Origin: a virus
Taxonomy: Duplodnaviria; Heunggongvirae; Uroviricota; Caudoviricetes
Strand: one strand, 5' to 3'
Length of the DNA stretch: 64,000 bases
IMG/VR virus record: IMGVR_UViG_2718218136_000001
Numbering within the stretch: the stretch's first letter is position 1; every line of letters starts with the position of its first letter. The notes under the pieces are model-generated. The model was not told the origin of the DNA. It searched no databases and saw nothing but the letters and a program-made list of their open reading frames with translations. The translations under genes were made by a program, and so were the position numbers. Positions 2,722 to 58,109 of this stretch are shown one piece after another.

Positions 2722-3752
2722 AAACACCTCTCGTCACCCGTAATGAAATAGCCGAAGCGATCGCCCTGCATACTGCCTGTATGCCGACACGGGAGATCCC
2801 CGGCGCAATTGCTAACTATTTCATGATAACCAGACGTTTTTATACCCGAACAGATAAGGCTGTGATCAACAGGCTACTGATAGCCGAGATCAGGGATTAT
2901 TTGATTGAACAAGGACGTCTACGTTACGCAACAGTGGCAGCAGAAATGAGAAAGGAGGCACATAGAATGACCGGTAATAATTTAAATGTTGAAAAACCAG
3001 CACCTGTTGCTTCAGCTACGCCAGCACCAGCCCTGAATGTCATCCCCAACACCGGAGACACAATCGACAGCCAAACATTGTTGAAGATGGTCAATGAGGC
3101 ACGGAAATTATGTAGCGAAAAACCAGTTCGCAACAATGATTTCATTGCCAGAGTTAAGGATGAGCTTGAAGGAGAAACCTACGAAATTTTCGTAGGTCAA
3201 AAAAACGGCGCAGTAATAGATATTATAACCATGACCTACAAACAAGCCCTGCGAGTTGCCGCGCGCGAGTCAAAAGCGGTCCGCCGTTCGCTGATCGACA
3301 AACTGGAAGAATTGCAGCAGGCAAACTCCCCTACCCCATCGATCCCCCAAACATTACCAGAAGCTCTACGCCTGGCTGCCGAGTTGGCAGAACAGAAAAT
3401 GCAGTTGGAACAACAGCTGGTGGCCGCAGCCCCTAAAGTCGATTTTGCCGACCGGGTATCAGCGGCTAATGGAATCCTGATCGGGGACTTTGCAAAGGTC
3501 GTTGGACTTAAGCAAAACGCCCTTTTCTCATGGTTGCGCCAGAACGGCATTCTCATGGCTTTTGGTGCGCGCAAAAACGTACCGCGCCAGCAGTACATTA
3601 ACGCCGGGTATTTCACGGTGAAAGAAGTGGTGCTGGATGATGAAAATGGCTACCAGATACGGCTGACGCCCCAATTAACGGGTAAAGGCCAGCAGTGGTT
3701 AACTAGCAAGCTACTTGATGCTGGTTTGTTAAAACCAGTAGCAATAGGTTAA
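2718..3752 (+). CDS. ant: antirepressor Ant (Ant1/Ant2 in-frame pair expected)
   Basis: 344 aa; C-terminal region shares the KilA-C/antirepressor block (PQTLPEALRLAAELAEQK...GKGQQWL) with the KilA ORF and the second ant-like ORF in this window. Confidence 0.75.
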   Translation: MKTPLVTRNEIAEAIALHTACMPTREIPGAIANYFMITRRFYTRTDKAVINRLLIAEIRDYLIEQGRLRYATVAAEMRKEAHRMTGNNLNVEKPAPVASATPAPALNVIPNTGDTIDSQTLLKMVNEARKLCSEKPVRNNDFIARVKDELEGETYEIFVGQKNGAVIDIITMTYKQALRVAARESKAVRRSLIDKLEELQQANSPTPSIPQTLPEALRLAAELAEQKMQLEQQLVAAAPKVDFADRVSAANGILIGDFAKVVGLKQNALFSWLRQNGILMAFGARKNVPRQQYINAGYFTVKEVVLDDENGYQIRLTPQLTGKGQQWLTSKLLDAGLLKPVAIG

Positions 3753-3829
3753 CAAAAGAAAAAACCTGCCAGCTAACTGGCAGGTTTCTGAGCAGATCGA
3801 CCAACCCGATCTGGATCGAGTTAGAAAAA

Positions 3830-3846
3830 TTTGCTCTAATAAATTT
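3830..3846 (+). promoter_or_regulatory. C1 operator upstream of kilA-repL
   Basis: tttgctctaataaattt, one mismatch to the C1 operator consensus, about 70 bp before the kilA start. Confidence 0.6.
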
Positions 3847-3915
3847 CGTTTTCTAAGTGCAAAGAATCACCATTTCGAGCTGGTGATTGAAGGTTGATGC
3901 AAATTTGGAGAAAAA

Positions 3916-4716
3916 ATGCAACAAACATTCAATGCGGATATGAATATATCAAACCTTCATCAAAATGTCGATCCTTCAACCACCCTGCCTGTTATTTGTG
4001 GTGTTGAAATTACGACCGACCGCGCTGGCCGTTATAACCTTAATGCTCTACACAGAGCGAGCGGACTCGGTGCCCATAAAGCGCCAGCTCAATGGCTAAG
4101 AACGCTGTCAGCCAAACAGCTCATCGAAGAGCTTGAAAAAGAAACTATGCAGAATTGCATAGTTTCGTTCGAAGGCCGTGGCGGCGGCACTTTTGCCCAT
4201 GAATTGCTCGCAGTGGAGTACGCTGGTTGGATTTCTCCCGCGTTTCGGCTGAAGGTAAACCAGACATTTATCGACTATCGAGCTGGAAGATTACAACCTG
4301 CTATTCCGAAGAGCCTCCCAGAAGCTCTCCGTTTGGCTGCTGACCTGGCAGAGCAAAAGCAACGGCTGGAGCAAAAAATGCTGATGGATGCACCTAAAGT
4401 CGAATTCGCCGAACGCGTTGCTACCGCCAGCGGGGTTCTAATCGGCAACTATGCCAAAGTGCTCGGCCTGGGCCAAAACTATCTCTTCACCTGGTTGCGT
4501 GATAACGGAATTCTGATCGCAACCGGTGAACGCAGAAACGTCCCCAAACAAGAATACATATCCCGTGGGTATTTCACCCTTAAAGAAACCGTGATCGATA
4601 CAAGCAATGGAAGCAGGATTTCTTTCACGACTCGTATAACCGGCAAAGGTCAGCAGTGGCTGATGAAGCGATTGCTTGATGCTGGTGTGCTGGTACCTGT
4701 CGCGGCAACGCGCTAA
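3916..4716 (+). CDS. kilA: KilA (KilA-N plus KilA-C domains)
   Basis: 266 aa, the length recalled for P1 KilA; antirepressor-like C-terminal block; immediately upstream of repL. Confidence 0.8.
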   Translation: MQQTFNADMNISNLHQNVDPSTTLPVICGVEITTDRAGRYNLNALHRASGLGAHKAPAQWLRTLSAKQLIEELEKETMQNCIVSFEGRGGGTFAHELLAVEYAGWISPAFRLKVNQTFIDYRAGRLQPAIPKSLPEALRLAADLAEQKQRLEQKMLMDAPKVEFAERVATASGVLIGNYAKVLGLGQNYLFTWLRDNGILIATGERRNVPKQEYISRGYFTLKETVIDTSNGSRISFTTRITGKGQQWLMKRLLDAGVLVPVAATR

Positions 4717-4745
4717 CAGACGTAGTAAGAACCACCAGCATTGTA

Positions 4746-5591
4746 ATGCTGGCTAAAGTCACTTTCCTGAGCTGTATAACGATGAGCGATTTTACTTTTT
4801 CTGGCTATGAATTGGCCTGCTTTGTAACACACTCCGGTCTATCCCGTAGCGCCGGGCATATCCTGTCGCAATGTGCAAATCTCGCGGCAACAACCAGTGA
4901 ATACTTCATTCACAAGCCTCACCGCCTGATCGCGGCAGAAACTGGTTATAGCCAATCAACCGTCGTTCGTGCATTCCGTGAAGCTGTAAACAAAGGAATT
5001 CTGTCTGTAGAGATTGTTATCGGCGATCACCGTGAACGTCGCGCTAACCTGTACCGGTTTACACCATCCTTTTTGGCCTTCGCACAACAAGCCAAAAATG
5101 CGCTGATTGAAAGCAAATTAAAGATCTCTTCAGCGGCAACCAAGGTTAAAGCTGTTCTCGCTAAGACATTGGCTTTATTTAATTTTTTATCCACACCCCC
5201 ATGTCAAAATGATACCCCCTCCCCCTGTCAGGATGACGTGGCAATAAAGAATAAGAAGTCACAAGTTAAAAAAACAAAAAGATCAGTTTCCGGCGGTGCC
5301 GGAACGACCAGACTCAAAAAATTGACTTCATGGATCGCTGAGGCAAAAGCAAAGGCTGACAATCTGCGGTTATCCAAAAAACGCGCTCAAAAACATGAGT
5401 TCAAGCAGAAAGTAGAGGCGGCAGCGCGGAAATATGCTTACCTGAAGGACAAGCGTTCTCCTGATATTGGCGGGATATCAAACTTCGATAATCTGCCGCA
5501 TTGCATGACGGTAAACGAAGCTCTTAATGCGGTTTTAGCCAAAAATAAAGATAACGAACAATGGGGTATACCGGCAGGATTCAGAGGGTGA
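4746..5591 (+). CDS. repL: lytic replication initiator RepL (oriL expected inside the gene)
   Basis: 281 aa, the length recalled for P1 RepL; follows kilA under the same C1 operator. Confidence 0.75.
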   Translation: MLAKVTFLSCITMSDFTFSGYELACFVTHSGLSRSAGHILSQCANLAATTSEYFIHKPHRLIAAETGYSQSTVVRAFREAVNKGILSVEIVIGDHRERRANLYRFTPSFLAFAQQAKNALIESKLKISSAATKVKAVLAKTLALFNFLSTPPCQNDTPSPCQDDVAIKNKKSQVKKTKRSVSGGAGTTRLKKLTSWIAEAKAKADNLRLSKKRAQKHEFKQKVEAAARKYAYLKDKRSPDIGGISNFDNLPHCMTVNEALNAVLAKNKDNEQWGIPAGFRG

Positions 5592-18238: not shown

Positions 18239-19136
18239 GCACTGGAAAAATATTACTATTTATAAACTTTCTCGTGAGGCGGATCTGACCGACTTAGAAG
18301 ATAAAAAGAAAATGATCCTTTTCACGCCATGCGGTAGTCAGGATATGGCCAAGTTCGGTTTTGTATCGCCATTTGGTGATAATTCCGAAGTTATCGCTAT
18401 GCATGGAAATGGTTTTATCCTTGTTGAAGCAAAGCGCGAAACAAAAATTCTTCCCCCGCCGGTTATCCAGCGAGCTATTCAAGAAAAAATTGAAAAACTT
18501 GAGCAAGAACAAGCGCGTAAACTGAAGAAAACAGAGAAGGACTCCCTGAAAGACGAAGTTCTGCATTCTCTTCTGCCACGGGCTTTTTCAAAGTTTTCTG
18601 TTATCCAGGCGATCTACGACGGTTCAACTAAACGTATCTATATCAATGCCAGCGCGCGGCAGGCAGAGGATATGCTCGCGCTTATGCGTAAGTCTCTGGG
18701 TTCTCTTCCTGTTGTGCCACTAAGTGTTGAAAATCCCATTGAGTTAACGCTGACCGACTGGGTACGTGATGCTAGTGCTCCACAGGGATTTCAAATGGGG
18801 GATGCGGCAGAACTTAAGGCAGTGCTTGAGGATGGCGGTATCGCCCGAGTGAAAAAGCAGGATTTGGGAAGCGATGAAATTTCCACACACCTGGAAGCTG
18901 GCAAGCTCGTCACTAAGTTGGCACTCGACTGGCAGAACCGCATTAAATTTACACTGGACCATAACTTCAGCATTACCAGCGTCAATTTTGCGGATGAATT
19001 GCTTGAGCAGAACTCTGATATTGATAGTGAAGATGTTGCGCAGCGACTGGACGCAGATTTCTTCCTATTGACCAGTGAAATTTCGTGCCTGGTTGATGCT
19101 CTGGTAAATGCCCTTGGTGGAGAGGCTAAGCAGTGA
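18231..19136 (+). CDS. hrdC: RdgC-like recombination-associated protein
   Basis: About 300 aa with RdgC-like N-terminus [13 protein letters not shown]; directly upstream of dmt as in P1. Confidence 0.65.
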
Positions 19137-38313: not shown

Positions 38314-41300
38314 CTATATTTTTCCGCCTACGCCTTTAAACTTCTCAATAAACGAGACGATTTTCTGGAAAACTGCCTGTTTTTTCGTTTTATATTGCGG
38401 ATTTAACGGACTAAGTTTTGGTAATGTTTCGTTTAATTCTGTGCCATTTTCGGTGGCATATTCGCGTTTTAAAGACGTGCGAATATAGCGTTTTGCTGCA
38501 TCTTCATTGAGATTTTCTTCTTTTATCAATGCTTCTGCTTCACGTTGCTGTTCGCGTTGAGCAAACGTAAAGAATGCGTCAATGATGCTGGCTTTGTCCG
38601 GTAAATCATCCAGGTTCGTTTGCTGAATAAAATCGACCACCAGGCCCTCTTTAGCACGGTTCCCTAGGCTTGAACGAATTAAGCGTTTGACCTCTTCGAT
38701 CATTTCGCCCTTGCCTTTATTTTGTCTGTTGTGTTCGAAAATCAGTCCAAGGATATAATCCAGGTTTATTTCCTGAGACTTCAGCAAATCGACCTCAAAA
38801 ACTACGTCATCCCAGTCAGTGGTTGATTTCTCTTTTTTCTCAGCTTCTTTCTCACGGCGCTGCCAGTCGCGAATATCGTTATAGGCAGAACGATAATCCT
38901 GAATCTTGCGATCAGCAGGGAGACGAATTGTTTGCAATTTAGCGAACTTTTCATCATCCACATAATGCTCTGCTTTGAATTTTTCTACCGCAACAGGATC
39001 GCTAAGATCGATTTGTTGCAGGGCTTTTAGCGTGGCAAATTCATCATAGTTTTGCAGGATGTTCTCGGCACGCAGGTATTCGCCAAACAGTTTAACGAAG
39101 TCTTTCTTCTCTTTTTCACTTTCAATACTGGTAGGGTCAGGGAACCGTTGTTCCAGTTCTGAAACTACTGTCATAAAGCCGCGTTTAGCTTCACCAGTAG
39201 CAGCATCAGTAAAGCCTTCCATATACTCTGTATAACTCTTTTCTAACACCACATTTTTGGTGTTTTTGTCACCAAACAGCGTTATGGCATCAATAGTTGA
39301 GCGTTCCAGATCCCGGAAAGTGACGATATTACCGAAGGTTTTAGTAGCGTCATAAATGCGGTTGGTGCGGGAAAATGCCTGCATCAGGCCGTGAAAACGC
39401 AAGTTTTTATCGACGAATAGCGTGTTCAATGTTGGAGCATCGAAGCCGGTTAAAAACATCCCCACGACGATTAACAAGTCAACATCCTGATTTTTAACCC
39501 GCTGAGCCAGGTCCCGATAGTAGTTCTGAAAACCCTTGCTATCAGTACTGAAATTCATTTGAAAATGGTCGTTATATTCACGAATTGCAGCATCCAGAAA
39601 CTCTTTAGCACTGCTGTCCATTGCGCTGGTATCAAAAGTTTCATCGGAAATTTCACCAATGGCATTTTGTTCTTCATTAGCGGCAAAGGAGAAGATTGTC
39701 GCAACACGCAGCGGTTTATAGGTAGCCGATTTATTAGCGGCTTCTTCTTGTAACCGTTTAAACGTCGCATAATAGGCTTTCGCGGCATCCACGCTGCTCA
39801 CTGCCAGCATGGCATTAAAGCCTTTGGAGCCTGGGAAGGTACGGTGGGTTTTCTGGCGGAAGTTGTTCAGGATATATTGCGTGATTTCCTGAATACGCAT
39901 GGGATGAAGAAACGCCTGCTGATTTTCAGCCGCACTCAGTTTTTTCTCGTCAGTTTCTGTCTCTAAAGACTTAAACTGTGGCCGCACATCGTTGTAGTCC
40001 ACCTTGAATTTGAGCACTTTTTCGTCACGAATCGCATCGGTAATTACATACGAATGCAATTCACGACCAAATACGCTGGCGGTTGTTTCTGAGCCTAAGG
40101 CGTTTTCCGGGAAAATAGGGGTGCCGGTAAAACCAAACTGATAATAGCGTTTGAATTTCTTCTTCAGGTTTTTCTGCGCTTCTCCAAACTGGCTGCGGTG
40201 GCATTCATCAAATATAAACACCACTTGCTGATTATATACAGGCAGGTCGCTTTCTGCTTTCATCAGATTATTGAGTTTCTGAATAGTAGTGACGATAATT
40301 TTGTTATCGTCCTTATCCAGATTTCGTTTAAGGCCTGCGGTATTTTCCGAGCCGTTGACGCTGTCTGGCGAAAAACGCTGATATTCCTTCATGGTCTGGT
40401 AATCGAGGTCTTTCCTGTCGACCACAAAGAAGACTTTATCAATAAAGTCCAGCTCTGTTGCCAGACGCGCGGCTTTAAAGCTGGTGAGGGTTTTACCAGA
40501 ACCGGTAGTGTGCCAGATATACCCACCGCTTTCCGGTTTTGACCAGTTCTTCGCTGTAAAGGAACTCTTAATTTTCCACAGAATGCGCTCGGTGGCGGCA
40601 ATCTGGTACGGTCGCATCACCAGTAGCGTCTGACTACTGTCAAAAACGCTGTAGTTCACCAGAACATTCAGCAGAGTATGTTTCTGGAAAAAGGTAGCGG
40701 TAAAGTCTTTGAGGTCTTTAATCAGCGTGTTGTCTGATTTCGCCCAATTCATGGTGAAGTCAAAACTGTTTTTATCGCGCTTTGTCGTGTTGGCAAAATA
40801 ACGGGTATCGGTGCCGTTAGAAATGACAAACAGTTGCAGATACTTAAACAGGGAATTTTCGCTGTTAAAACTCTCTTTACTGTAACGATGTATCTGGTTG
40901 AAAGCCTCACGAATCGCCACCCCGCGTTTTTTTAGTTCGATTTGCACCAGCGGTAAACCATTAACCAGGATCGTGACGTCATAACGGTTAGCATGAGAAC
41001 CCGTCTGTTCAAACTGCTGGATAATCTGCACCTTATTGCGCATGAGATTCTTTTTATCTATCAAATAGATGTTCTCAAGTCGCTCGTCATCAAAAATAAA
41101 GTCGCAAATATAGTCGATATGGATTTTACGGGTCTTATCCAGAATGCCATCGCTCGGGTTGTCCAGATACTGCTCCGTGAAACGCCGCCACTCGCTGTCA
41201 TTAAACACCACACCATTGAGGCTCTGAAGCTGTTGTCGAACATTGGCCAGCATCGCCGACTGAGATTTTACGGATATAAATTCATAGCCCTGATTTCGCA

Positions 41301-41430
41301 GGTCCTGAATCAGTTCACGTTCCAGGTCCGATTCGCTCTGGTAGCTGTCGCCTGTTGGCTCAGCTTTGATGTACTTATCAAGAACGATAAAGTTATTGGA
41401 TTCAGCAATGGTGTGTGTCTGATGAGTCAT
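38314..41430 (-). CDS. hsdR: type I restriction enzyme R subunit (EcoR124-like, family IC)
   Basis: 1038 aa; SF2 motifs GSGKT ([11 protein letters not shown]) and DEAH-type [10 protein letters not shown]; same length as EcoR124I HsdR as recalled. Confidence 0.85.
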
Positions 41431-41551
41431 AGCGCATCCTTTGTGCCGTCTGGCAAGGGCCGGAAGGGGGGTAATGGTGACTTCCGGCGCGTAAAAAATA
41501 GTCTATATACTGACCGGGTGTTAAGGTGGTCCGATCGGTAGCAATGATCAA

Positions 41552-42783
<1,232 letters not shown>

Positions 42784-42787
<4 letters not shown>

Positions 42788-44346
42788 TTTTGCACCTCGC
42801 AGCCTTCAATTTCAGCCACAATCGCATCAATATCTTTACGCAACTGGTCGATTTTGCTGACCGTGGTTTTCAGCTCAGCATTCAGCTCAGCAATATCGAT
42901 AATTTCGCGGTTATCTTTCGCTTCCACATAGCTGCTCACCGACAGGTTATAGTCATTAGCAACAACGGTCTCAAACGCGACAGATTTCGCCAGATGAGCA
43001 ACATCTTCCTTGCTGGCAAATACCTGCATAATCTGTTCGATATGGGTATCGGTCAGGATATTGTTGTTAGTCTCTTTTTTGAACAGTTCGCTGGCGTCAA
43101 TAAACTGAACGTTGGTATCCGTTTTATGTTTGGACAGAACCAGAATGTTTACTGCAATGGTGGTGCCAAAGAACAGGTTCGGTGCCAGTGAAATTACGGT
43201 TTCGACATAGTTATTGTCAATCAGATACTGACGGATTTTCTGCTCCGCGCCGCCACGGTAAAAAATACCCGGGAAGCAAACAATCGCAGCACGACCTTTG
43301 GCAGAAAGATAGTTCAGCGCATGTAGTACAAAGGCGAAGTCAGCTTTTGATTTGGGGGCCAGAACGCCAGCCGGGGCAAAACGCTCATCGTTAATCAGTG
43401 TCGGGTCATCGCTGCCAATCCATTTCACCGAATACGGCGGGTTAGAAACGATGGCATCAAACGGTTTTTCATCTCTGAAGTGCGGCTCAGTCAGTGTATT
43501 ACCCAGCCTGATATCAAACTTGTCGTAGTTGATGTTGTGCAAAAACATGTTCATACGCGCCAGATTATAGGTCGTATGGTTGATTTCCTGACCGAAAAAG
43601 CCTTCTTCGATGATATGGTTATCAAACTGCTTTTTAGCCTGCAACAACAGTGAGCCGGAACCCGCTGCCGGGTCGTAGATTTTGTTAACGTTGGTCTGCC
43701 CGTGCATAGCCAGTTGTGCAATCAGCCTGGAGACGTGCTGCGGTGTAAAGAACTCACCGCCTGACTTACCAGCATTCGCCGCATAGTTAGAAATCAGGAA
43801 CTCATAGGCATCGCCGAACAGGTCAATCTGATGTTCGTTAAAGTCGCCAAGCTTTAAGCCTTCAACCCCTTTCAGGACCGCAGCCAGGCGGGCATTTTTA
43901 TCCTTAACGGTGTTACCCAGGCGGTTACTGGTGGTATCGAAATCAGCAAACAGACCTTTGATGTCTGCTTCTGAAGGATAACCGTAAGCAGAACTTTCGA
44001 TAGCAACGAAGATGCTGTTTAAATCTGCATTCAGTCTGTCATTGGTATTTGCTTTCGCCGCTACGTTGCAGAAAAGCTGACTGGGGTAGATGAAGTAGCC
44101 TTTAGTTTTGATGGCATCGTCTTTAATATCATCAGTAATTACGCTGTCATCCAGTTTCGCATAACAGATACTGTCATCACCGGCTTCAATATAGCTGGAA
44201 AAATTTTCGCTGATAAAACGGTAGAAAAGTGCGCCCAGAACGTATTGCTTAAAATCCCATCCATCGACCGAACCCCTGACATCGTTAGCAATTTGCCAGA
44301 TTTGACGATGAAGCTCTGCACGTTGTTGAATACTTGTCATTTTCAT
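42784..44346 (-). CDS. hsdM: type I N6-adenine methyltransferase M subunit
   Basis: 520 aa with VSNPPYS motif IV and AdoMet-binding region; stop overlaps the hsdS start. Confidence 0.85.
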
Positions 44347-54495: not shown

Positions 54496-54807
54496 GTGAG
54501 AAAGGATTTCAACATCGACGGAAAATATGTATTGCTGTCTGTAAGCACTAATATTCAGTCGCCAGCCGTCATTGTCACTGTAAAGCTGAGCGATAGAATG
54601 CCTGATATTGACTCAATATCCGTTGCGTTTCCTGTCAAAAGTATGCGTAGTGCTGAACATTTCGTGATGAATGCCACCGAGGAAGAAGCACGGCGCGGTT
54701 TTGCTAAAGTGATGTCTGAGTTTGGCGAACTCTTGGGTAAGGTTAACAATGTCCTTTCAATCAGTTCAGCAAGGTCCAAAGCGTTAACAGCTTCCATGAT
54801 GAAATAA
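54496..54807 (+). CDS. small hypothetical protein (cra position)
   Basis: ORF between cre and ref preceded by a C1 operator; start likely an internal Met. Confidence 0.35.
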   Translation: MRKDFNIDGKYVLLSVSTNIQSPAVIVTVKLSDRMPDIDSISVAFPVKSMRSAEHFVMNATEEEARRGFAKVMSEFGELLGKVNNVLSISSARSKALTASMMK

Positions 54808-54938
54808 AAAAAAGCCTGGCAAGGAGCCAGGCTGCACAAAAGAGCGGGTTTGTATTCCACATCCAATCAATCAAGAAGGAGTATAGCACACAGGTACTGA
54901 AGTGAAAAAATGTGATTCGCGATAAACAAAATACCTAT

Positions 54939-55054: not shown

Positions 55055-55615
55055 ATGAAAACAATCGAACAAAAAATTGAACAGTGCCGCAAGTGGCAGA
55101 AGGCAGCCAGAGAACGAGCGATCGCTCGGCAACGGGAGAAGTTGGCTGATCCGGTCTGGCGAGAATCTCAATATCAGAAAATGCGGGATACTCTCGACCG
55201 CCGTATCGCTAAACAGAAAGAGCGCCCACCAGCCAGCAAAACGCGGAAAAGCGCGGTAAAAATAAAATCTCGTGGCTTGAAGGGGAGAACACCAACGGCG
55301 GAGGAACGGCGCATCGCCAATGCTCTTGGCGCTCTCCCCTGCATTGCCTGCTATATGCATGGAGTAATATCTAATGAGGTGTCTCTGCACCATATCGCCG
55401 GTCGTACCGCGCCGGGTTGTCATAAAAAGCAATTGCCACTTTGTAGATGGCACCACCAGCATGCAGCTCCGGCTGAAGTAAGAGAAAAATACCCATGACT
55501 GGTCCCTGTTCATGCCGATGGTGTGGTTGGAGGCAAGAAAGAATTCACCTTGCTGAACAAGTCAGAGATGGAGTTACTGGCTGACGCCTATGAAATGGCA
55601 AACATCATGCACTAA
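55055..55615 (+). pseudogene. ref: ref (HNH nuclease) interrupted by an in-frame TGA at codon 148
   Basis: ORF from MKTIEQKIEQ stops at tga 55496-55498; the same frame continues LVPVHADGVVGGKKEFTLLNKSEMELLADAYEMANIMH to taa at 55613-55615, totalling 186 codons, the length recalled for P1 Ref. Confidence 0.6.
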
Positions 55616-55803
55616 TAAATATATTATTTTTAATGATAAATGATTGACAACTGACAAGTGACTTCAGTCAGAATCATCACACGCCCGGTACGGATGGATC
55701 CCTTTTCAAATATTCCATGGACGGCACAGTCTGAGTACCGGGCGCTACCTTCAGTTGTATTGCTAAGCCGCCGCTGGTGGCTTTTCTTTTTTGTAGGGGC
55801 GCT

Positions 55804-56445
55804 ATGGATAAGAAAATATGCGTTGTTTCAATGAGCGTCGGCAAACCGGCGTCAATGACTGCTGCATGGATCAACAATGAGCTGATCATGGCTGAGCGGA
55901 CCAGCTACCCTGAACGCCGCCGCGATATGGAACTCCAGCTGCTGCGCGAATTGCGAGAAAAAGAGGAAAAGGGTTTTATCGTGCTGGTGGAAGAGGAAAA
56001 CAGCTTTATTACCGGTCGAGTTGGCCAGCGTGTAAGGTTGCGTGATCCCTTCATGAACGGCAGACCGGTACTGATTGAAGCAATGCAGATTTACAAGGAA
56101 TTGGAACGCCAGAAAGCGATCAAGTTACCGCGCAAGGAATCCGGCAAATACATCCTTCACCAAAGCATCTTCGATTCCGAACACGATAAAAAAGGCGATG
56201 AATTTTTCAACATCAACTGGAGCGAAATAACGACAGAACATGTTCTGACGTTACTATGTTGCTTTGCGACGGAATACAACAACGTTGCCAGCGCCGACTA
56301 CATCAGGGCAATGGCTGGAGAAGTTGAGGCCCGCCAGGAGCCATCGTTACTAAGCCCTCTGATTAACAGAATTCGCGGAACCCAAACGCTGGCACAAAAA
56401 CGGGTGCCGAAAGGGGAATTAACAGGAAAAGGAAATTATCTATAA
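55804..56445 (+). CDS. hypothetical protein (mat position)
   Basis: About 213 aa from MDKKICVV; phage-typical GC content; sits between ref and the low-GC island. Confidence 0.45.
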   Translation: MDKKICVVSMSVGKPASMTAAWINNELIMAERTSYPERRRDMELQLLRELREKEEKGFIVLVEEENSFITGRVGQRVRLRDPFMNGRPVLIEAMQIYKELERQKAIKLPRKESGKYILHQSIFDSEHDKKGDEFFNINWSEITTEHVLTLLCCFATEYNNVASADYIRAMAGEVEARQEPSLLSPLINRIRGTQTLAQKRVPKGELTGKGNYL

Positions 56446-56501
56446 ACGTCAATGCATTAGGGTATACTTCTCCATAGAACTATAAGTAAATGGAGTAAGT
56501 A

Positions 56502-57602
56502 ATGAGCGAATATGTTGAGTTAGCATACGCTGCCGCTACAAGCAGGCTTTGTCTATTTACCGGGACTGGCTTTTCAAAGGCAGTCTCGAACGGCGAAGCA
56601 CCAACGTGGAAAGAACTATTAAAAAAAGTTTGCAGCAAAGTTCACAACGCCAAACAGTTGGAAGACACGTTATTCCCTGATGATAAACCACCAGCACTGA
56701 GTCTTGAAGAAGCCGCACAAATACTATCTTTGAAGCTCAACATTGAAGGCAAGTCGATTTATGATGAAATTGTTGACATCATATCTCCAATACAACTTGG
56801 CGAAGATATATCAAATATAAAGGATTTTTTTCAAAAAAGAACATTTCGTGTCATTACAACGAATTATGACAAGTTAGCTGAATACTTAACTGGAGATGAG
56901 GAGGTTCAGTCTATTACCCCAGGCTTACCTATTCCTAAATATCCCTCCAAAGTTAAAATATATCATGTCCATGGTTCTATTGACTCTCCACAAAACATGA
57001 TTGTTACATCAGAAGACTATTTTAGGTTTATAAACTCCGACACTTATTTCTCTCGAAAACTTAGCACGATGCTGCATGAAAATACAGTTGCGATATTAGG
57101 CTATTCTTTAAGCGACACGAACCTAAAAGCAATTATAAATGATTACAAAATATTCTCGAAAGGTAACACTCTGTGCTCTAATATATTTTTCATCTCTCGC
57201 AGTGAAGTAAGTCAAGATATGAAGGATTATTATTTTTATTGTTTTGGAATACGAGTAATTGACAACACCGAAATAGACTCTTTCTTTAAGAGATTGAGCA
57301 TTAACATAATGTTAATTGAAGGCGTCATAGCAAGAGCCAGACAAAGTATAAAAAGAGTTTTATCAGGCACTTTTAACTATAAGGATGAATACATTAGATT
57401 AGAAGATTCATTCTATCAAATAACTTCCTCGATTATATCTGAGGGTTTCGACTGGAATGACGGACAAGTAGTTGATTTTTTTCAAGAGAATAATAAAACA
57501 AAAAAGAGACTTAACAAGAGAGAGTGGTGCTTGGGAGCAATACGAGCAGCTTGCAAAATGGCTTATATATTTCGGCAGCCTTTTAGAAATTGGTGGAACT
57601 AA
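56502..57602 (+). CDS. SIR2-like (SIR2_2-type) NAD-binding protein, candidate anti-phage defence effector
   Basis: 366 aa with LFTGTGFS (Rossmann GxGxS), VITTNYD and YHVHGS motifs in the order seen in defence-associated SIR2 domains; strongly AT-rich relative to its flanks. Confidence 0.65.
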   Translation: MSEYVELAYAAATSRLCLFTGTGFSKAVSNGEAPTWKELLKKVCSKVHNAKQLEDTLFPDDKPPALSLEEAAQILSLKLNIEGKSIYDEIVDIISPIQLGEDISNIKDFFQKRTFRVITTNYDKLAEYLTGDEEVQSITPGLPIPKYPSKVKIYHVHGSIDSPQNMIVTSEDYFRFINSDTYFSRKLSTMLHENTVAILGYSLSDTNLKAIINDYKIFSKGNTLCSNIFFISRSEVSQDMKDYYFYCFGIRVIDNTEIDSFFKRLSINIMLIEGVIARARQSIKRVLSGTFNYKDEYIRLEDSFYQITSSIISEGFDWNDGQVVDFFQENNKTKKRLNKREWCLGAIRAACKMAYIFRQPFRNWWN

Positions 57603-57860
57603 GTATGAAAATGAATATTTAGACGCCGTTGAATACTCAATGTCCAACATGAGCAAAGAAATGAGATTAGGTTATTCGTGGCATGCTTATAGAGCTTGGG
57701 AAACAAGATGGTCCACAATCATTGCTTCAAATCGATTAATAATAAAAAACGCATCGAAGAAATTGGCGTACTGGAGGATGCTAATTCTATAGTAAAAGAT
57801 ATAGTGTAATTGAAGAGCGGCAAAAATTTAACGGGCAGCTACAACTGCCCGATATATAAA

Positions 57861-58109
57861 TCAATCCGCATTCAGGAGCAATGCGTTATCTATGATGATC
57901 TGCTCCCATTCTTCGAATGCCCGGTCGCGGACGCCCTGGGGAACGCTGTTAGTTTTGAAATCGACGACCGTACGCCATTTCCCGTCCGGACGGTACATGC
58001 GCAGAGCTTTACTTCCCCCTTCCCTGCGCACCTCAACGTTATGCTTATCAGCAAACTCTTGTAATGCTCGTAGCGTCCCATGCTTTACTGTGTAGTATCG
58101 CTTTTTCAA
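57861..58109 (-). CDS. small regulatory protein (lxc/bof position)
   Basis: 82-aa ORF directly downstream of the ulx-like ORF on the darB strand; assignment by position and size. Confidence 0.4.
   Translation of the reverse strand: MKKRYYTVKHGTLRALQEFADKHNVEVRREGGSKALRMYRPDGKWRTVVDFKTNSVPQGVRDRAFEEWEQIIIDNALLLNAD

What the first reader, a model, noticed from the sequence alone, without database searches (positions are those of the whole stretch)
56446..57860. Low-GC island with a stand-alone SIR2-like gene where P1 carries its type III res-mod genes
Between the mat-position gene and the lxc/ulx/darB block, where P1 has EcoP1I res and mod, there is a single 366-aa ORF with the defence-type SIR2 signature (LFTGTGFS, VITTNYD, YHVHGS) in DNA that is far more AT-rich than its flanks. 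That points to a horizontally acquired NAD-depleting abortive-infection effector swapped into this hotspot. The short size and lack of an obvious partner gene do not fit the SIR2 systems I know (ThsA/ThsB, DSR1/2, SIR2-HerA, SIR2-pAgo), so it may be a new single-gene variant.
Basis: partly seen in the sequence, partly recalled or inferred. Interest (0 to 1): 0.85.

Follow-up and report, generated by a model that had tools for sequence, protein, structure and literature searches.

The report
Untested stand-alone SIR2 gene in P1
A P1-like phage-plasmid carries, where phage P1 keeps its restriction genes, one gene of a widespread but untested SIR2 family that probably kills infected cells by destroying NAD+. 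The copy in this window reads as broken by two single-base slips.

Summary
Window 56446-57860 is a 1,415-bp AT-rich cassette (GC 0.31-0.37; flanks 0.45-0.53). It fills exactly the gap between the stop codons of mat and lxc, where P1 has EcoP1I res/mod, SJ46 has CapRel and RCS47 has nothing.

Its one gene hits Pfam SIR2_2 (3e-23). The catalytic Asn121 and His157 align to ThsA N112/H152 and KomC H146.

The "366 aa" length is not the real size. Relatives carry a 435-aa gene (56502-57809). This copy has +1 T (57476-57482) and -1 A (57744-57749). Whether these are sequencing errors or real decay cannot be told.

The intact family is about 434 aa: a SIR2 domain plus a family-specific HEAT-like alpha-solenoid, a miniature of the DSR2 layout. 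It has no conserved neighbour in 74 loci and is under purifying selection (dN/dS about 0.12). It occurs in 127 PLSDB plasmids, nearly all P1-like, in prophages and in at least 435 species.

It is full-length only in phrog_7567 (unknown function). It matches known defence models only over the SIR2 core. I found no experimental report.

Best reading: a compact, single-gene, DSR2-like NADase abortive-infection system, untested. It is a new variant of a known kind, of moderate interest.

The parts
56446..57860 (.). Variable AT-rich cassette between the convergent stop codons of mat and lxc (the P1 res/mod slot).
   Evidence: Homology to RCS47, SJ46 and P1 ends at 56441-56445 and resumes at 57863. 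GC is 0.31-0.37. There are no flanking direct or inverted repeats and no Rfam match.
56446..56501 (+). 56-nt leader with GGAG 8 nt upstream of the ATG.
   Evidence: The leader is 55/56 identical between two SIR2 clades that share only 57-59% protein identity. The scan found no consensus sigma-70 promoter in it.
56502..57809 (+). Stand-alone SIR2 family gene. It is 435 aa in intact alleles and is read here with two frameshifts.
   Evidence: Intact 1,308-nt genes lie at the same position in NZ_CP027575, NZ_LR890538 and NZ_CP091679. The intact protein matches phrog_7567 over 1-434 of 434 positions, E = 2e-229.
56502..57602 (+). The ORF as it reads in this window: 366 aa, of which residues 1-325 are native and 41 are out of frame. 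RefSeq calls it WP_225088618.1.
56502..57266 (+). SIR2 (Rossmann) NADase domain, about aa 1-255. Ser25, Asn121 (56862-56864), Asp123 and His157 (56970-56972) are invariant.
   Evidence: Pfam SIR2_2 hit. These residues are invariant columns in the 56-sequence alignment. N121 and H157 align to ThsA N112/H152 and to KomC H146. The closest solved folds are DSR2, KomC and ThsA.
57384..57809 (+). C-terminal all-helical alpha-solenoid (HEAT-like) domain, about aa 295-435. In this window both frameshifts fall inside it.
57476..57482 (+). T7 run where the intact alleles have T6. This +1 frameshift leads to the stop at 57600-57602.
57744..57749 (+). A6 run where the intact alleles have A7. This -1 frameshift returns reading to the original frame.
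57832..57851 (.). GC-rich hairpin between the SIR2 gene and lxc. On the minus strand it is followed by a T-run, so it looks like a terminator for lxc and possibly works in both directions.
   Evidence: Terminator scan. Clade B cassettes carry a different hairpin at this position.
55804..56445 (+). mat, the conserved left flank, co-directional with the SIR2 gene. The P1 Omat/Pmat/LPmat region is conserved upstream of it.
57861..58109 (-). lxc, the conserved right flank, followed by ulx and darB.

Best explanation
**What it is.** The island is a swappable cargo cassette in the mat|lxc slot of P1-like phage-plasmids. It carries one gene of a stand-alone, roughly 435-aa SIR2 family.

**How it most likely works (inferred).** It acts as a single-protein abortive-infection sensor and effector, in the manner of DSR2.
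- The N-terminal SIR2 domain (Ser25, Asn121, Asp123, His157) is an NAD+ glycohydrolase that is kept inactive in uninfected cells.
- The C-terminal HEAT-like alpha-solenoid, joined to it by a long and variable helix, acts as the sensor or regulator.
- It probably binds a protein of an infecting phage, possibly with a change in oligomeric state. This would release NADase activity, collapse cellular NAD+ and stop the competitor phage.
- The benefit would go to the lysogen population and to the resident P1-like element.

**What is shown.** SIR2_2 homology with intact catalytic residues, the domain architecture, the lack of any partner gene, purifying selection, and residence in a slot that also holds proven defence systems.

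**What is inferred.** NADase activity, the trigger, abortive infection, and expression in the lysogen.

**This particular copy.** It reads as frameshifted and would lack most of the solenoid. Either the record has two homopolymer errors or this allele is inactive.
For: **Homology to defence sirtuins**
- Pfam SIR2_2 at 3e-23.
- All PADLOC hits are defence sirtuins: PDC-S25, ThsA, LmuA, Dsr1 and Dsr2.
- Asn121 and His157 align with ThsA N112/H152 and with the KomC H146 position.
- S25, N121, D123 and H157 are invariant in 56 homologs. They match the DSR2 catalytic set S51/N133/D135/H171 given in PMC11850899.

**Structure**
- The full-length AF2 model (pLDDT 84, pTM 0.80) is closest to the DSR2 SIR2 domain, KomC and ThsA.
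- The C-terminal domain model (pLDDT 91) is a HEAT-like solenoid. In DSR2 the HEAT-like C-terminal domain is what captures the phage tail tube protein.
- The C-terminal domain occurs only in this architecture.

**Stand-alone gene under selection**
- No flanking family is shared by more than 4 of 74 loci.
- dN/dS is about 0.12 while dS is 0.55-0.8, in a backbone that is 95-98% identical.

**Defence context**
- The same slot holds EcoP1I in P1 and CapRel in SJ46. CapRel^SJ46 is a validated anti-phage system.
- The E. coli chromosomal homolog sits at a prophage edge next to the integrase. About 29 IMG/VR viral contigs carry full-length members.
Against: - No experiment on this family was found, and neither NADase activity nor phage protection has been shown.
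- No consensus promoter was found in the 56-nt leader. The gene lies directly downstream of mat, which in P1 is controlled by the C1 repressor and a late promoter. Expression in the lysogen is therefore unproven.
- The copy in this window is frameshifted twice.
- None of the 50,697 deposited phage genomes carries the family.
Confidence: 0.62

Rival explanations
1. In this window the gene is a genuine pseudogene. The two homopolymer slips are real, so only a 366-aa product is made: the SIR2 domain, 70 further native residues and 41 out-of-frame residues. That product has lost regulated function and the cassette is decaying cargo.
For: - The reading frame breaks at 57476-57482 and stops at 57602.
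- The neighbouring ref gene has a true nonsense substitution (W148*). This element has therefore lost at least one accessory gene.
- A few other records show split genes or an IS insertion in the SIR2 gene: H48, H101, H115 and H121.
Against: - Both changes are single-base length changes in runs of 6 or more bases, of opposite sign and 267 nt apart.
- The only other indel in 7.5 kb against the closest relative is also in a homopolymer (A8 against A6). This is the usual signature of long-read or pyrosequencing errors.
- Apart from the indels, the allele differs from the intact one at only 6 positions.
- Only this one record carries the frameshifts.
Confidence: 0.45
2. The protein is a true sirtuin-type NAD-dependent protein deacylase or ADP-ribosyltransferase. 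It would modify a host or phage protein for regulation rather than deplete NAD+, as the RefSeq name "SIR2 family NAD-dependent protein deacylase" suggests.
For: - RefSeq uses that product name.
- The SIR2 fold is shared with deacylases.
- The gene lies next to regulatory genes (mat, lxc).
Against: - The match is to PF13289 (SIR2_2), the defence-type clade.
- The best solved relatives are the NADases KomC, ThsA and DSR2, not deacylases.
- No CxxC zinc module is visible among the invariant residues.
- The gene's mobility, AT-richness and deep allele diversity in a defence slot fit immunity.
Confidence: 0.08
3. The protein is a Thoeris-like or Kongming-like effector. It would wait for a small-molecule signal made by a partner encoded elsewhere, rather than sensing a phage protein itself.
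For: - ThsA and KomC are the closest SIR2 domains by sequence.
- Such effectors are signal-activated NADases.
Against: - The C-terminal domain is an alpha-solenoid, not SLOG/STALD or Macro.
- The ThsA models match only the SIR2 part.
- No TIR, KomA/B or other partner family is linked in 74 loci.
- The family moves as a single gene between very different genomes.
Confidence: 0.07
4. The gene serves the phage-plasmid selfishly, through post-segregational killing or exclusion of rival P1-like elements or plasmids. It might act during lytic growth, because it is co-transcribed with mat, rather than defending the lysogen against unrelated phages.
For: - The gene is 56 nt downstream of mat and co-directional with it, with no terminator between them and no consensus promoter of its own.
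- In P1, mat is controlled by C1 and a late promoter, and that control region is conserved here.
- Deep allelic diversity (dS 0.55-0.8; two clades at 57-59% identity) is compatible with conflict between elements.
Against: - No antitoxin-like partner is present.
- The family also sits in chromosomes and at prophage edges, outside any plasmid-maintenance context.
- CapRel^SJ46 sits in the same slot and orientation and defends against unrelated lytic phages when expressed from its native promoter.
Confidence: 0.12

Closest known systems
DSR2 (defence-associated sirtuin 2, Bacillus subtilis)
   Same: - Both are single-gene systems.
- Both have an N-terminal SIR2 NADase domain with the S/N/D/H catalytic set, and DSR2 is the best structural match (TM about 0.7 over the SIR2 domain).
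- Both have a C-terminal HEAT-like alpha-solenoid. In DSR2 that solenoid binds the phage tail tube protein and switches on the NADase.
   Different: - This family is about 435 aa against about 1,000 aa for DSR2. It has no middle helical-bundle domain and only about 140 aa of solenoid.
- Sequence similarity is confined to the SIR2 core. The NCBIfam Dsr2 score is 23 bits against a cut-off of 1,400.
- The trigger and the oligomeric state are unknown.
ThsA of Thoeris type I
   Same: The SIR2 domains are homologous, and N121 and H157 align to the catalytic N112 and H152. PADLOC ThsA1 hit at E = 2e-17.
   Different: There is no SLOG/STALD signal-binding domain, because the C-terminus is an alpha-solenoid. 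There is no ThsB/TIR gene nearby in any of 74 loci.
KomC of the Kongming system
   Same: KomC is the best sequence match among solved structures (E = 6e-7). The TTNYD and HG motifs are shared, and KomC H146 aligns with H157.
   Different: KomC is a 264-aa SIR2-only protein that works with KomA and KomB. Here there are no partners, and there is an extra C-terminal domain.
PADLOC candidate PDC-S25 (similar to phrog_2695), an untested single-gene SIR2 candidate of about 520 aa
   Same: It is the best PADLOC hit (2e-27) and is also a single-gene SIR2 candidate.
   Different: Only 159 of 517 profile positions, the SIR2 core, are matched. The lengths differ (435 against about 520 aa) and the C-terminal domain is unmatched. 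The window's family is a separate PHROG, phrog_7567.
CapRel^SJ46 and EcoP1I, the other cargoes of the same P1 slot
   Same: - All occupy the mat|lxc position in P1-like elements.
- CapRel has the same orientation as the SIR2 gene and is also a single protein that fuses sensor and effector.
   Different: The proteins and chemistries are unrelated: a tRNA-pyrophosphorylating toxSAS (from my own knowledge) and a type III restriction-modification system, against a SIR2 NADase.

Membership tests
SIR2_2 / defence-type sirtuin superfamily (PF13289) | Profile match above the Pfam gathering score. | tested here: met
   82.9 bits against a cut-off of 24.5, E = 3e-23, covering profile positions 3-140 of 141.
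SIR2_2 / defence-type sirtuin superfamily (PF13289) | Catalytic Asn and His of the NADase site are conserved. | tested here: met
   N121 and H157 are invariant in 56 homologs. They align to ThsA N112/H152 and KomC H146.
SIR2_2 / defence-type sirtuin superfamily (PF13289) | NAD+ hydrolysis activity. | not testable with these tools
   This needs a biochemical assay.
DSR2 | Full-length match to the Dsr2 equivalog model (about 1,000-1,200 aa with SIR2, MID and long HEAT domains). | tested here: not met
   NCBIfam NF041819 scores 23 bits against a cut-off of 1,400. The PADLOC Dsr2 model matches only profile positions 121-218 of 1,222.
DSR2 | Single-gene architecture of an N-terminal SIR2 domain and a C-terminal alpha-solenoid sensor. 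| tested here: met
DSR1 | Full-length match to the Dsr1 equivalog model (about 1,200 aa). | tested here: not met
   NF041818 scores 25.8 bits against a cut-off of 1,400.
Thoeris (ThsA/ThsB) | A C-terminal SLOG/STALD (or Macro) signal-binding domain in ThsA. | tested here: not met
   The ThsA models match only the SIR2 region, profile positions 107-232 of 478. The C-terminus is an all-helical solenoid.
Thoeris (ThsA/ThsB) | An adjacent TIR-domain ThsB gene. | tested here: not met
   The neighbours here are mat and lxc. No conserved neighbour was found in 74 loci.
SIR2-HerA (Nezha) | An adjacent HerA ATPase/helicase gene. | tested here: not met
   None is present in the window slot or as a conserved neighbour.
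SIR2-APAZ / short pAgo (SPARSA) | An APAZ domain and an adjacent short Argonaute. | tested here: not met
   There is no such neighbour and no such domain hit.
Kongming (KomABC) | KomA and KomB partner genes, with KomC as a SIR2-only protein of about 264 aa. | tested here: not met
   There are no partners, and the protein has an extra C-terminal domain of about 140 aa.
Lamassu with a SIR2-type LmuA | An adjacent LmuB (SMC-like) gene. | tested here: not met
   The LmuA model matches only the SIR2 part, profile positions 14-224 of 433. No SMC-like neighbour is conserved.
PADLOC PDC-S25 | Near full-length match to the 517-528-aa profile. | tested here: not met
   Only profile positions 128-286 are matched, 31% of the profile. 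Whether PADLOC's own thresholds would still call the gene was not tested.
phrog_7567 (unnamed phage protein family) | Full-length profile match. | tested here: met
   Positions 1-434 of 434, E = 2e-229. The PHROG is annotated as "unknown function".
Anti-phage defence system (functional class) | Protects against phage when expressed. | not testable with these tools
   No published test was found in nine counted searches of the paper library and in the text of the papers they led to.

The most novel reading that the evidence does not exclude
This 435-aa family may be a distinct, minimal "SIR2 plus short alpha-solenoid" immune receptor that senses a phage protein directly with only about 140 residues of HEAT-like repeats. 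Its two deep clades and its hypervariable linker helix in P1-like elements would then reflect diversification of trigger specificity. If so, it is one of the most common but so far unrecognised defence cargoes of P1-like phage-plasmids in E. coli, and the smallest known DSR-type sensor-effector.
Probability: 0.35. Interest if true: 0.6.

Novelty: new variant of a known kind. Interest (0 to 1): 0.45.

Why it matters
**Why the slot matters.** P1-like phage-plasmids are common in clinical and animal E. coli. Their res/mod slot has already yielded EcoP1I and CapRel^SJ46, both model systems.

**How common the family is.**
- In PLSDB this SIR2 family is at least as frequent as those two in plasmids: 127 records, against 81 with a CapRel-like gene and about 108 with a Res protein at least 80% identical to EcoP1I.
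- A DefenseFinder survey of 846 P1 contigs did not list it. No SIR2 or Dsr term appears in the part of its table that is held.

**What it could give if validated.**
- A very compact single-protein NADase sensor, 435 aa against about 1,000 for DSR2. That size is tractable for structural work on how a short solenoid gates a SIR2 active site.
- A missing entry for defence annotation tools.
- A partial explanation of phage host-range barriers in lysogens carrying P1-like elements.

Tried and rejected
**Partner gene.**
- I ran all-against-all BLASTP of the neighbours in 6 loci and then in 74 loci. The only recurrent "families" were antisense ORFs inside the SIR2 gene itself.
- mat cannot be a partner, because it is present in all P1-likes, including those with an empty slot.

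**Transposon-like insertion.** There are no terminal repeats or target duplications. The junctions are the flanking stop codons. I rejected this in favour of cassette exchange by recombination in the conserved flanks.

**Non-coding RNA in the island.** Only a chance snoRNA match at E = 0.76.

**The C-terminal domain in other architectures.**
- The word-indexed search returned only fragments.
- The exhaustive profile search found the domain only in this architecture.

**Other dead ends.**
- The afdb50 fold library was unavailable.
- Deposited phage genomes gave no tblastn hit in INPHARED.

**Literature.** I searched for PDC-S25, the WP accessions, phage-plasmid with SIR2, single-gene or standalone SIR2, and DefensePredictor. 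No experimental report on this family turned up.
- The Sir2 homologue mentioned by Vassallo et al. is probably the first protein of the two-gene PD-T7-2 system. The text says only that its second protein resembles HerA of Sir2/HerA, and no PD-T model hit this protein in PADLOC.
- The Vibrio NAD-depleting system is Nezha, a SIR2-HerA system.

**Promoter.** No consensus sigma-70 site lies upstream of the gene. The timing of expression is left open.
Full report
**1. The observation**

The window is part of a P1-like phage-plasmid. It is 100% identical to E. coli O177:H21 plasmid unnamed3 (NZ_CP016549.1; IncY, 126 kb).

It matches Pfam SIR2_2 (PF13289) at E = 3e-23, 82.9 bits against a gathering score of 24.5. 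GC falls to 0.31-0.37 across 56650-57850, against 0.45-0.53 on both sides.

In P1 the gene order is mat, then res, mod with an IS5, then lxc, ulx and darB. I aligned the window to P1, to RCS47 and to SJ46. Homology stops exactly at the mat stop codon (56445) and resumes at the lxc stop codon (57861-57863).
- RCS47 has an empty slot of 39 bp containing only a hairpin.
- SJ46 has a 373-aa RelA/SpoT-family gene there, in the same orientation as the SIR2 gene.
- There are no flanking repeats and no Rfam match.

**2. The 366-aa length is not the real size**

Closely related plasmids carry a 1,308-nt, 435-aa gene at this position. Against the 99.4%-identical allele of NZ_CP027575, the window differs by six substitutions, one extra T in a T-run (57476-57482: T7 against T6) and one missing A in an A-run (57744-57749: A6 against A7).

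The first slip shifts the frame and produces a stop at 57600-57602. The 106-aa ORF 57472..57792 is the displaced continuation of the gene. The second slip returns reading to the original frame for the last 22 codons.

Over 7.5 kb of alignment, the only other indel is also in a homopolymer (A8 against A6 at 54806). That pattern is typical of sequencing error. However, the neighbouring ref gene carries a genuine nonsense substitution, W148*, and a few other records have split or IS-interrupted copies. Real decay cannot be excluded, and I rate the two options as roughly even.

**3. The family**

The intact protein belongs to a well-conserved family of 431-437-aa proteins.
- Members share 52-62% identity over the full length in Xenorhabdus, Pantoea, Erwinia, Klebsiella, Vibrio, Halomonas, Pseudomonas, Comamonas, Rhizobium and others.
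- 435 candidate stretches in the species-representative genome set encode a relative.
- About 29 IMG/VR viral contigs carry full-length members.
- An E. coli chromosomal homolog (436 aa) sits at a prophage edge, just after the integrase.

No gene travels with it. Clustering all ORFs within 4 kb in 74 loci gave no flanking family shared by more than 4 loci. The larger apparent clusters were antisense ORFs inside the SIR2 gene itself.

How the libraries see it:
- In PHROGs the protein matches phrog_7567 over its full length (E = 2e-229, "unknown function").
- In PADLOC only the SIR2 core matches. The best hit is the untested candidate PDC-S25, over 159 of 517 profile positions, followed by ThsA, LmuA, Dsr1 and Dsr2.
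- The NCBIfam Dsr1 and Dsr2 equivalogs score 26 and 23 bits against cut-offs of 1,400.

**4. Anatomy**

The alignment of 56 homologs has these invariant residues:
- G21, T22, G23, F24, S25;
- T119, T120, N121, Y122, D123;
- H155, H157, G158, S159;
- G200, Y201, S202, L203, D205, N207;
- a set of C-terminal Trp and other residues: W344, Q346, Y347, W353, S379, M380, G390, S392, W393, W399, W403, N410, R411.

N121 and H157 align residue for residue with ThsA N112 and H152, and with the position mutated in KomC(H146N). The set S25/N121/D123/H157 mirrors the DSR2 catalytic set S51/N133/D135/H171 (PMC11850899).

The AlphaFold model of an 88%-identical allele has pLDDT 84 and pTM 0.80. It shows a Rossmann-type SIR2 domain (about aa 1-255), a long helix (258-287) and an all-helical C-terminal domain (295-431). 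Its best solved matches are the SIR2 domains of DSR2 (target TM about 0.7), KomC and ThsA.

**5. Population picture in P1-like elements**

In PLSDB, 698 plasmids share the flanks. Of all PLSDB plasmids, 127 carry a family member. 121 of these are from Escherichia and 112 are non-mobilizable; the records listed are mostly 74-147 kb, in the size range of P1-like plasmids. For comparison, 81 plasmids carry a CapRel-like gene, and about 108 carry a Res protein at least 80% identical to EcoP1I. Among 5,426 complete E. coli genomes, 134 match the island.

Two deep clades occupy the slot:
- clade A, 435 aa, with three sub-alleles at 84-88% identity;
- clade B, 434 aa, 57-59% identical to clade A.

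The two clades share a 56-nt leader that is 55/56 identical, but they have different trailers and hairpins. All seven carriers I inspected have the gene in the mat|lxc slot.

Within clade A, dN/dS is about 0.12 (0.05-0.09 in the SIR2 domain, 0.10-0.15 in the solenoid). dS is 0.55-0.8, although the backbone is 95-98% identical. The alleles are therefore old, selected, and exchanged as cassettes. The least conserved stretch is the linker helix (aa 256-294), at 27-51% identity.

None of the 50,697 deposited phage genomes has the family. A published comparison of P1-like plasmids already lists res-mod as a low-GC variable region (PMC9603915). A DefenseFinder survey of P1 contigs reports type III RM, dGTPase, PrrC and CapRel but no SIR2 system. 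The part of its table that is held contains no SIR2 or Dsr term.

**6. Mechanism**

The best-supported reading is a single-protein abortive-infection system built like a miniature DSR2. The SIR2 NADase would be held off by, and switched on through, a C-terminal alpha-solenoid that recognises a phage component. NAD+ collapse would then stop the invader.

- Shown: homology, intact catalytic residues, architecture, the lack of a partner, purifying selection, and residence in a slot that also holds two proven defence systems. EcoP1I is one. CapRel^SJ46 is the other, and it protects when expressed from its native promoter.
- Inferred: NADase activity, the trigger, the abortive phenotype, and expression in the lysogen.

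Expression is a real open point. The gene lies 56 nt downstream of mat, with no terminator between them and no consensus promoter of its own. The P1 control region for mat, with its C1 operator and late promoter, is conserved upstream of mat. Expression mainly during lytic growth, and hence a role in conflict between elements, remains possible.

**7. Comparison and novelty**

The protein works like DSR2 but fails the membership tests for DSR1/2, Thoeris, SIR2-HerA, SIR2-pAgo, Kongming, Lamassu and PDC-S25 (see the table). It is a member only of the generic SIR2_2 superfamily and of an unnamed PHROG.

I found no experimental report in nine counted searches of the paper library. The related papers I read also contained none. 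I cannot rule out one in journals outside the library.

I class it as a new variant of a known kind, a compact stand-alone defence sirtuin. It is moderately interesting because it is frequent, sits in a historically productive slot, is missed by current defence catalogues and is easy to test. It is not categorically new, and the copy in this window may be defective.

Noticed in passing
window 55055-55615 (+), stop at 55496-55498: The ref gene (RecA-dependent nuclease) has an in-frame nonsense codon at position 148 (W148*). P1-like relatives have an intact 186-aa Ref, so ref is a pseudogene in this element.
   Followed up: partly
window 38314-44346 (-): A complete type I restriction-modification operon: hsdR (1,038 aa, with an EcoR124_C domain), hsdS (411 aa) and hsdM (520 aa). 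It is extra defence cargo on this 126-kb P1-like plasmid.
   Followed up: no
window 19133-22420 (+): A 1,095-aa DNA methyltransferase with D12 N6-adenine and C5-cytosine methylase domains also carries Hint and LAGLIDADG matches near its N-terminal part. This looks like an intein-type insertion in a Dmt-like gene.
   Followed up: no
L098-L100 (NZ_CP041630, NZ_CP023961, NZ_CP043337), locus 3501-4902: A second deep clade of the same SIR2 family (434 aa, 57-59% identical) occupies the same mat|lxc slot. Its 56-nt leader is nearly identical (55/56) but its terminator hairpin differs. This implies cassette swapping with a conserved 5' junction.
   Followed up: yes
L097 (phage SJ46) 1759-2880, and L096 (RCS47) 1647-1685: The well-studied CapRel^SJ46 gene lies in exactly this slot and in the same orientation. 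RCS47 has an empty slot of 39 bp with only a hairpin. The first 25 nt or so after the mat stop look partly similar between the SIR2 and CapRel cassettes (ACGT...CATTA.GGGTAT).
   Followed up: partly
hit H48, NZ_JBUYCO010000003.1 67486-70099: In one dog E. coli plasmid an IS5-like ISKpn26 element lies within the region that matches the SIR2 cassette. The match is split into two pieces about 1.2 kb apart. I did not check whether the element interrupts the coding sequence.
   Followed up: no
window 54800-54808: The intergenic A-run downstream of c8 is A8 here and A6 in three relatives. It is the only other indel against the closest relative over 7.5 kb, which bears on whether the record has homopolymer errors.
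   Followed up: partly
window 55765-55783 (+): A terminator-like hairpin followed by a T-run (AAGCCGCCGCTGGTGGCTT TTCTTTTTTG) lies between the Pmat/LPmat region and the mat start codon at 55804. Its role is unknown.
   Followed up: no
L010 / L042 (Pantoea sp. Mb-10), locus L010 4628-5857: In Pantoea the family member lies directly downstream of an HD plus HD_assoc (dGTPase-like) gene. The P1 survey lists dGTPase as a defence cargo of P1-like plasmids. This may be a small defence island.
   Followed up: no
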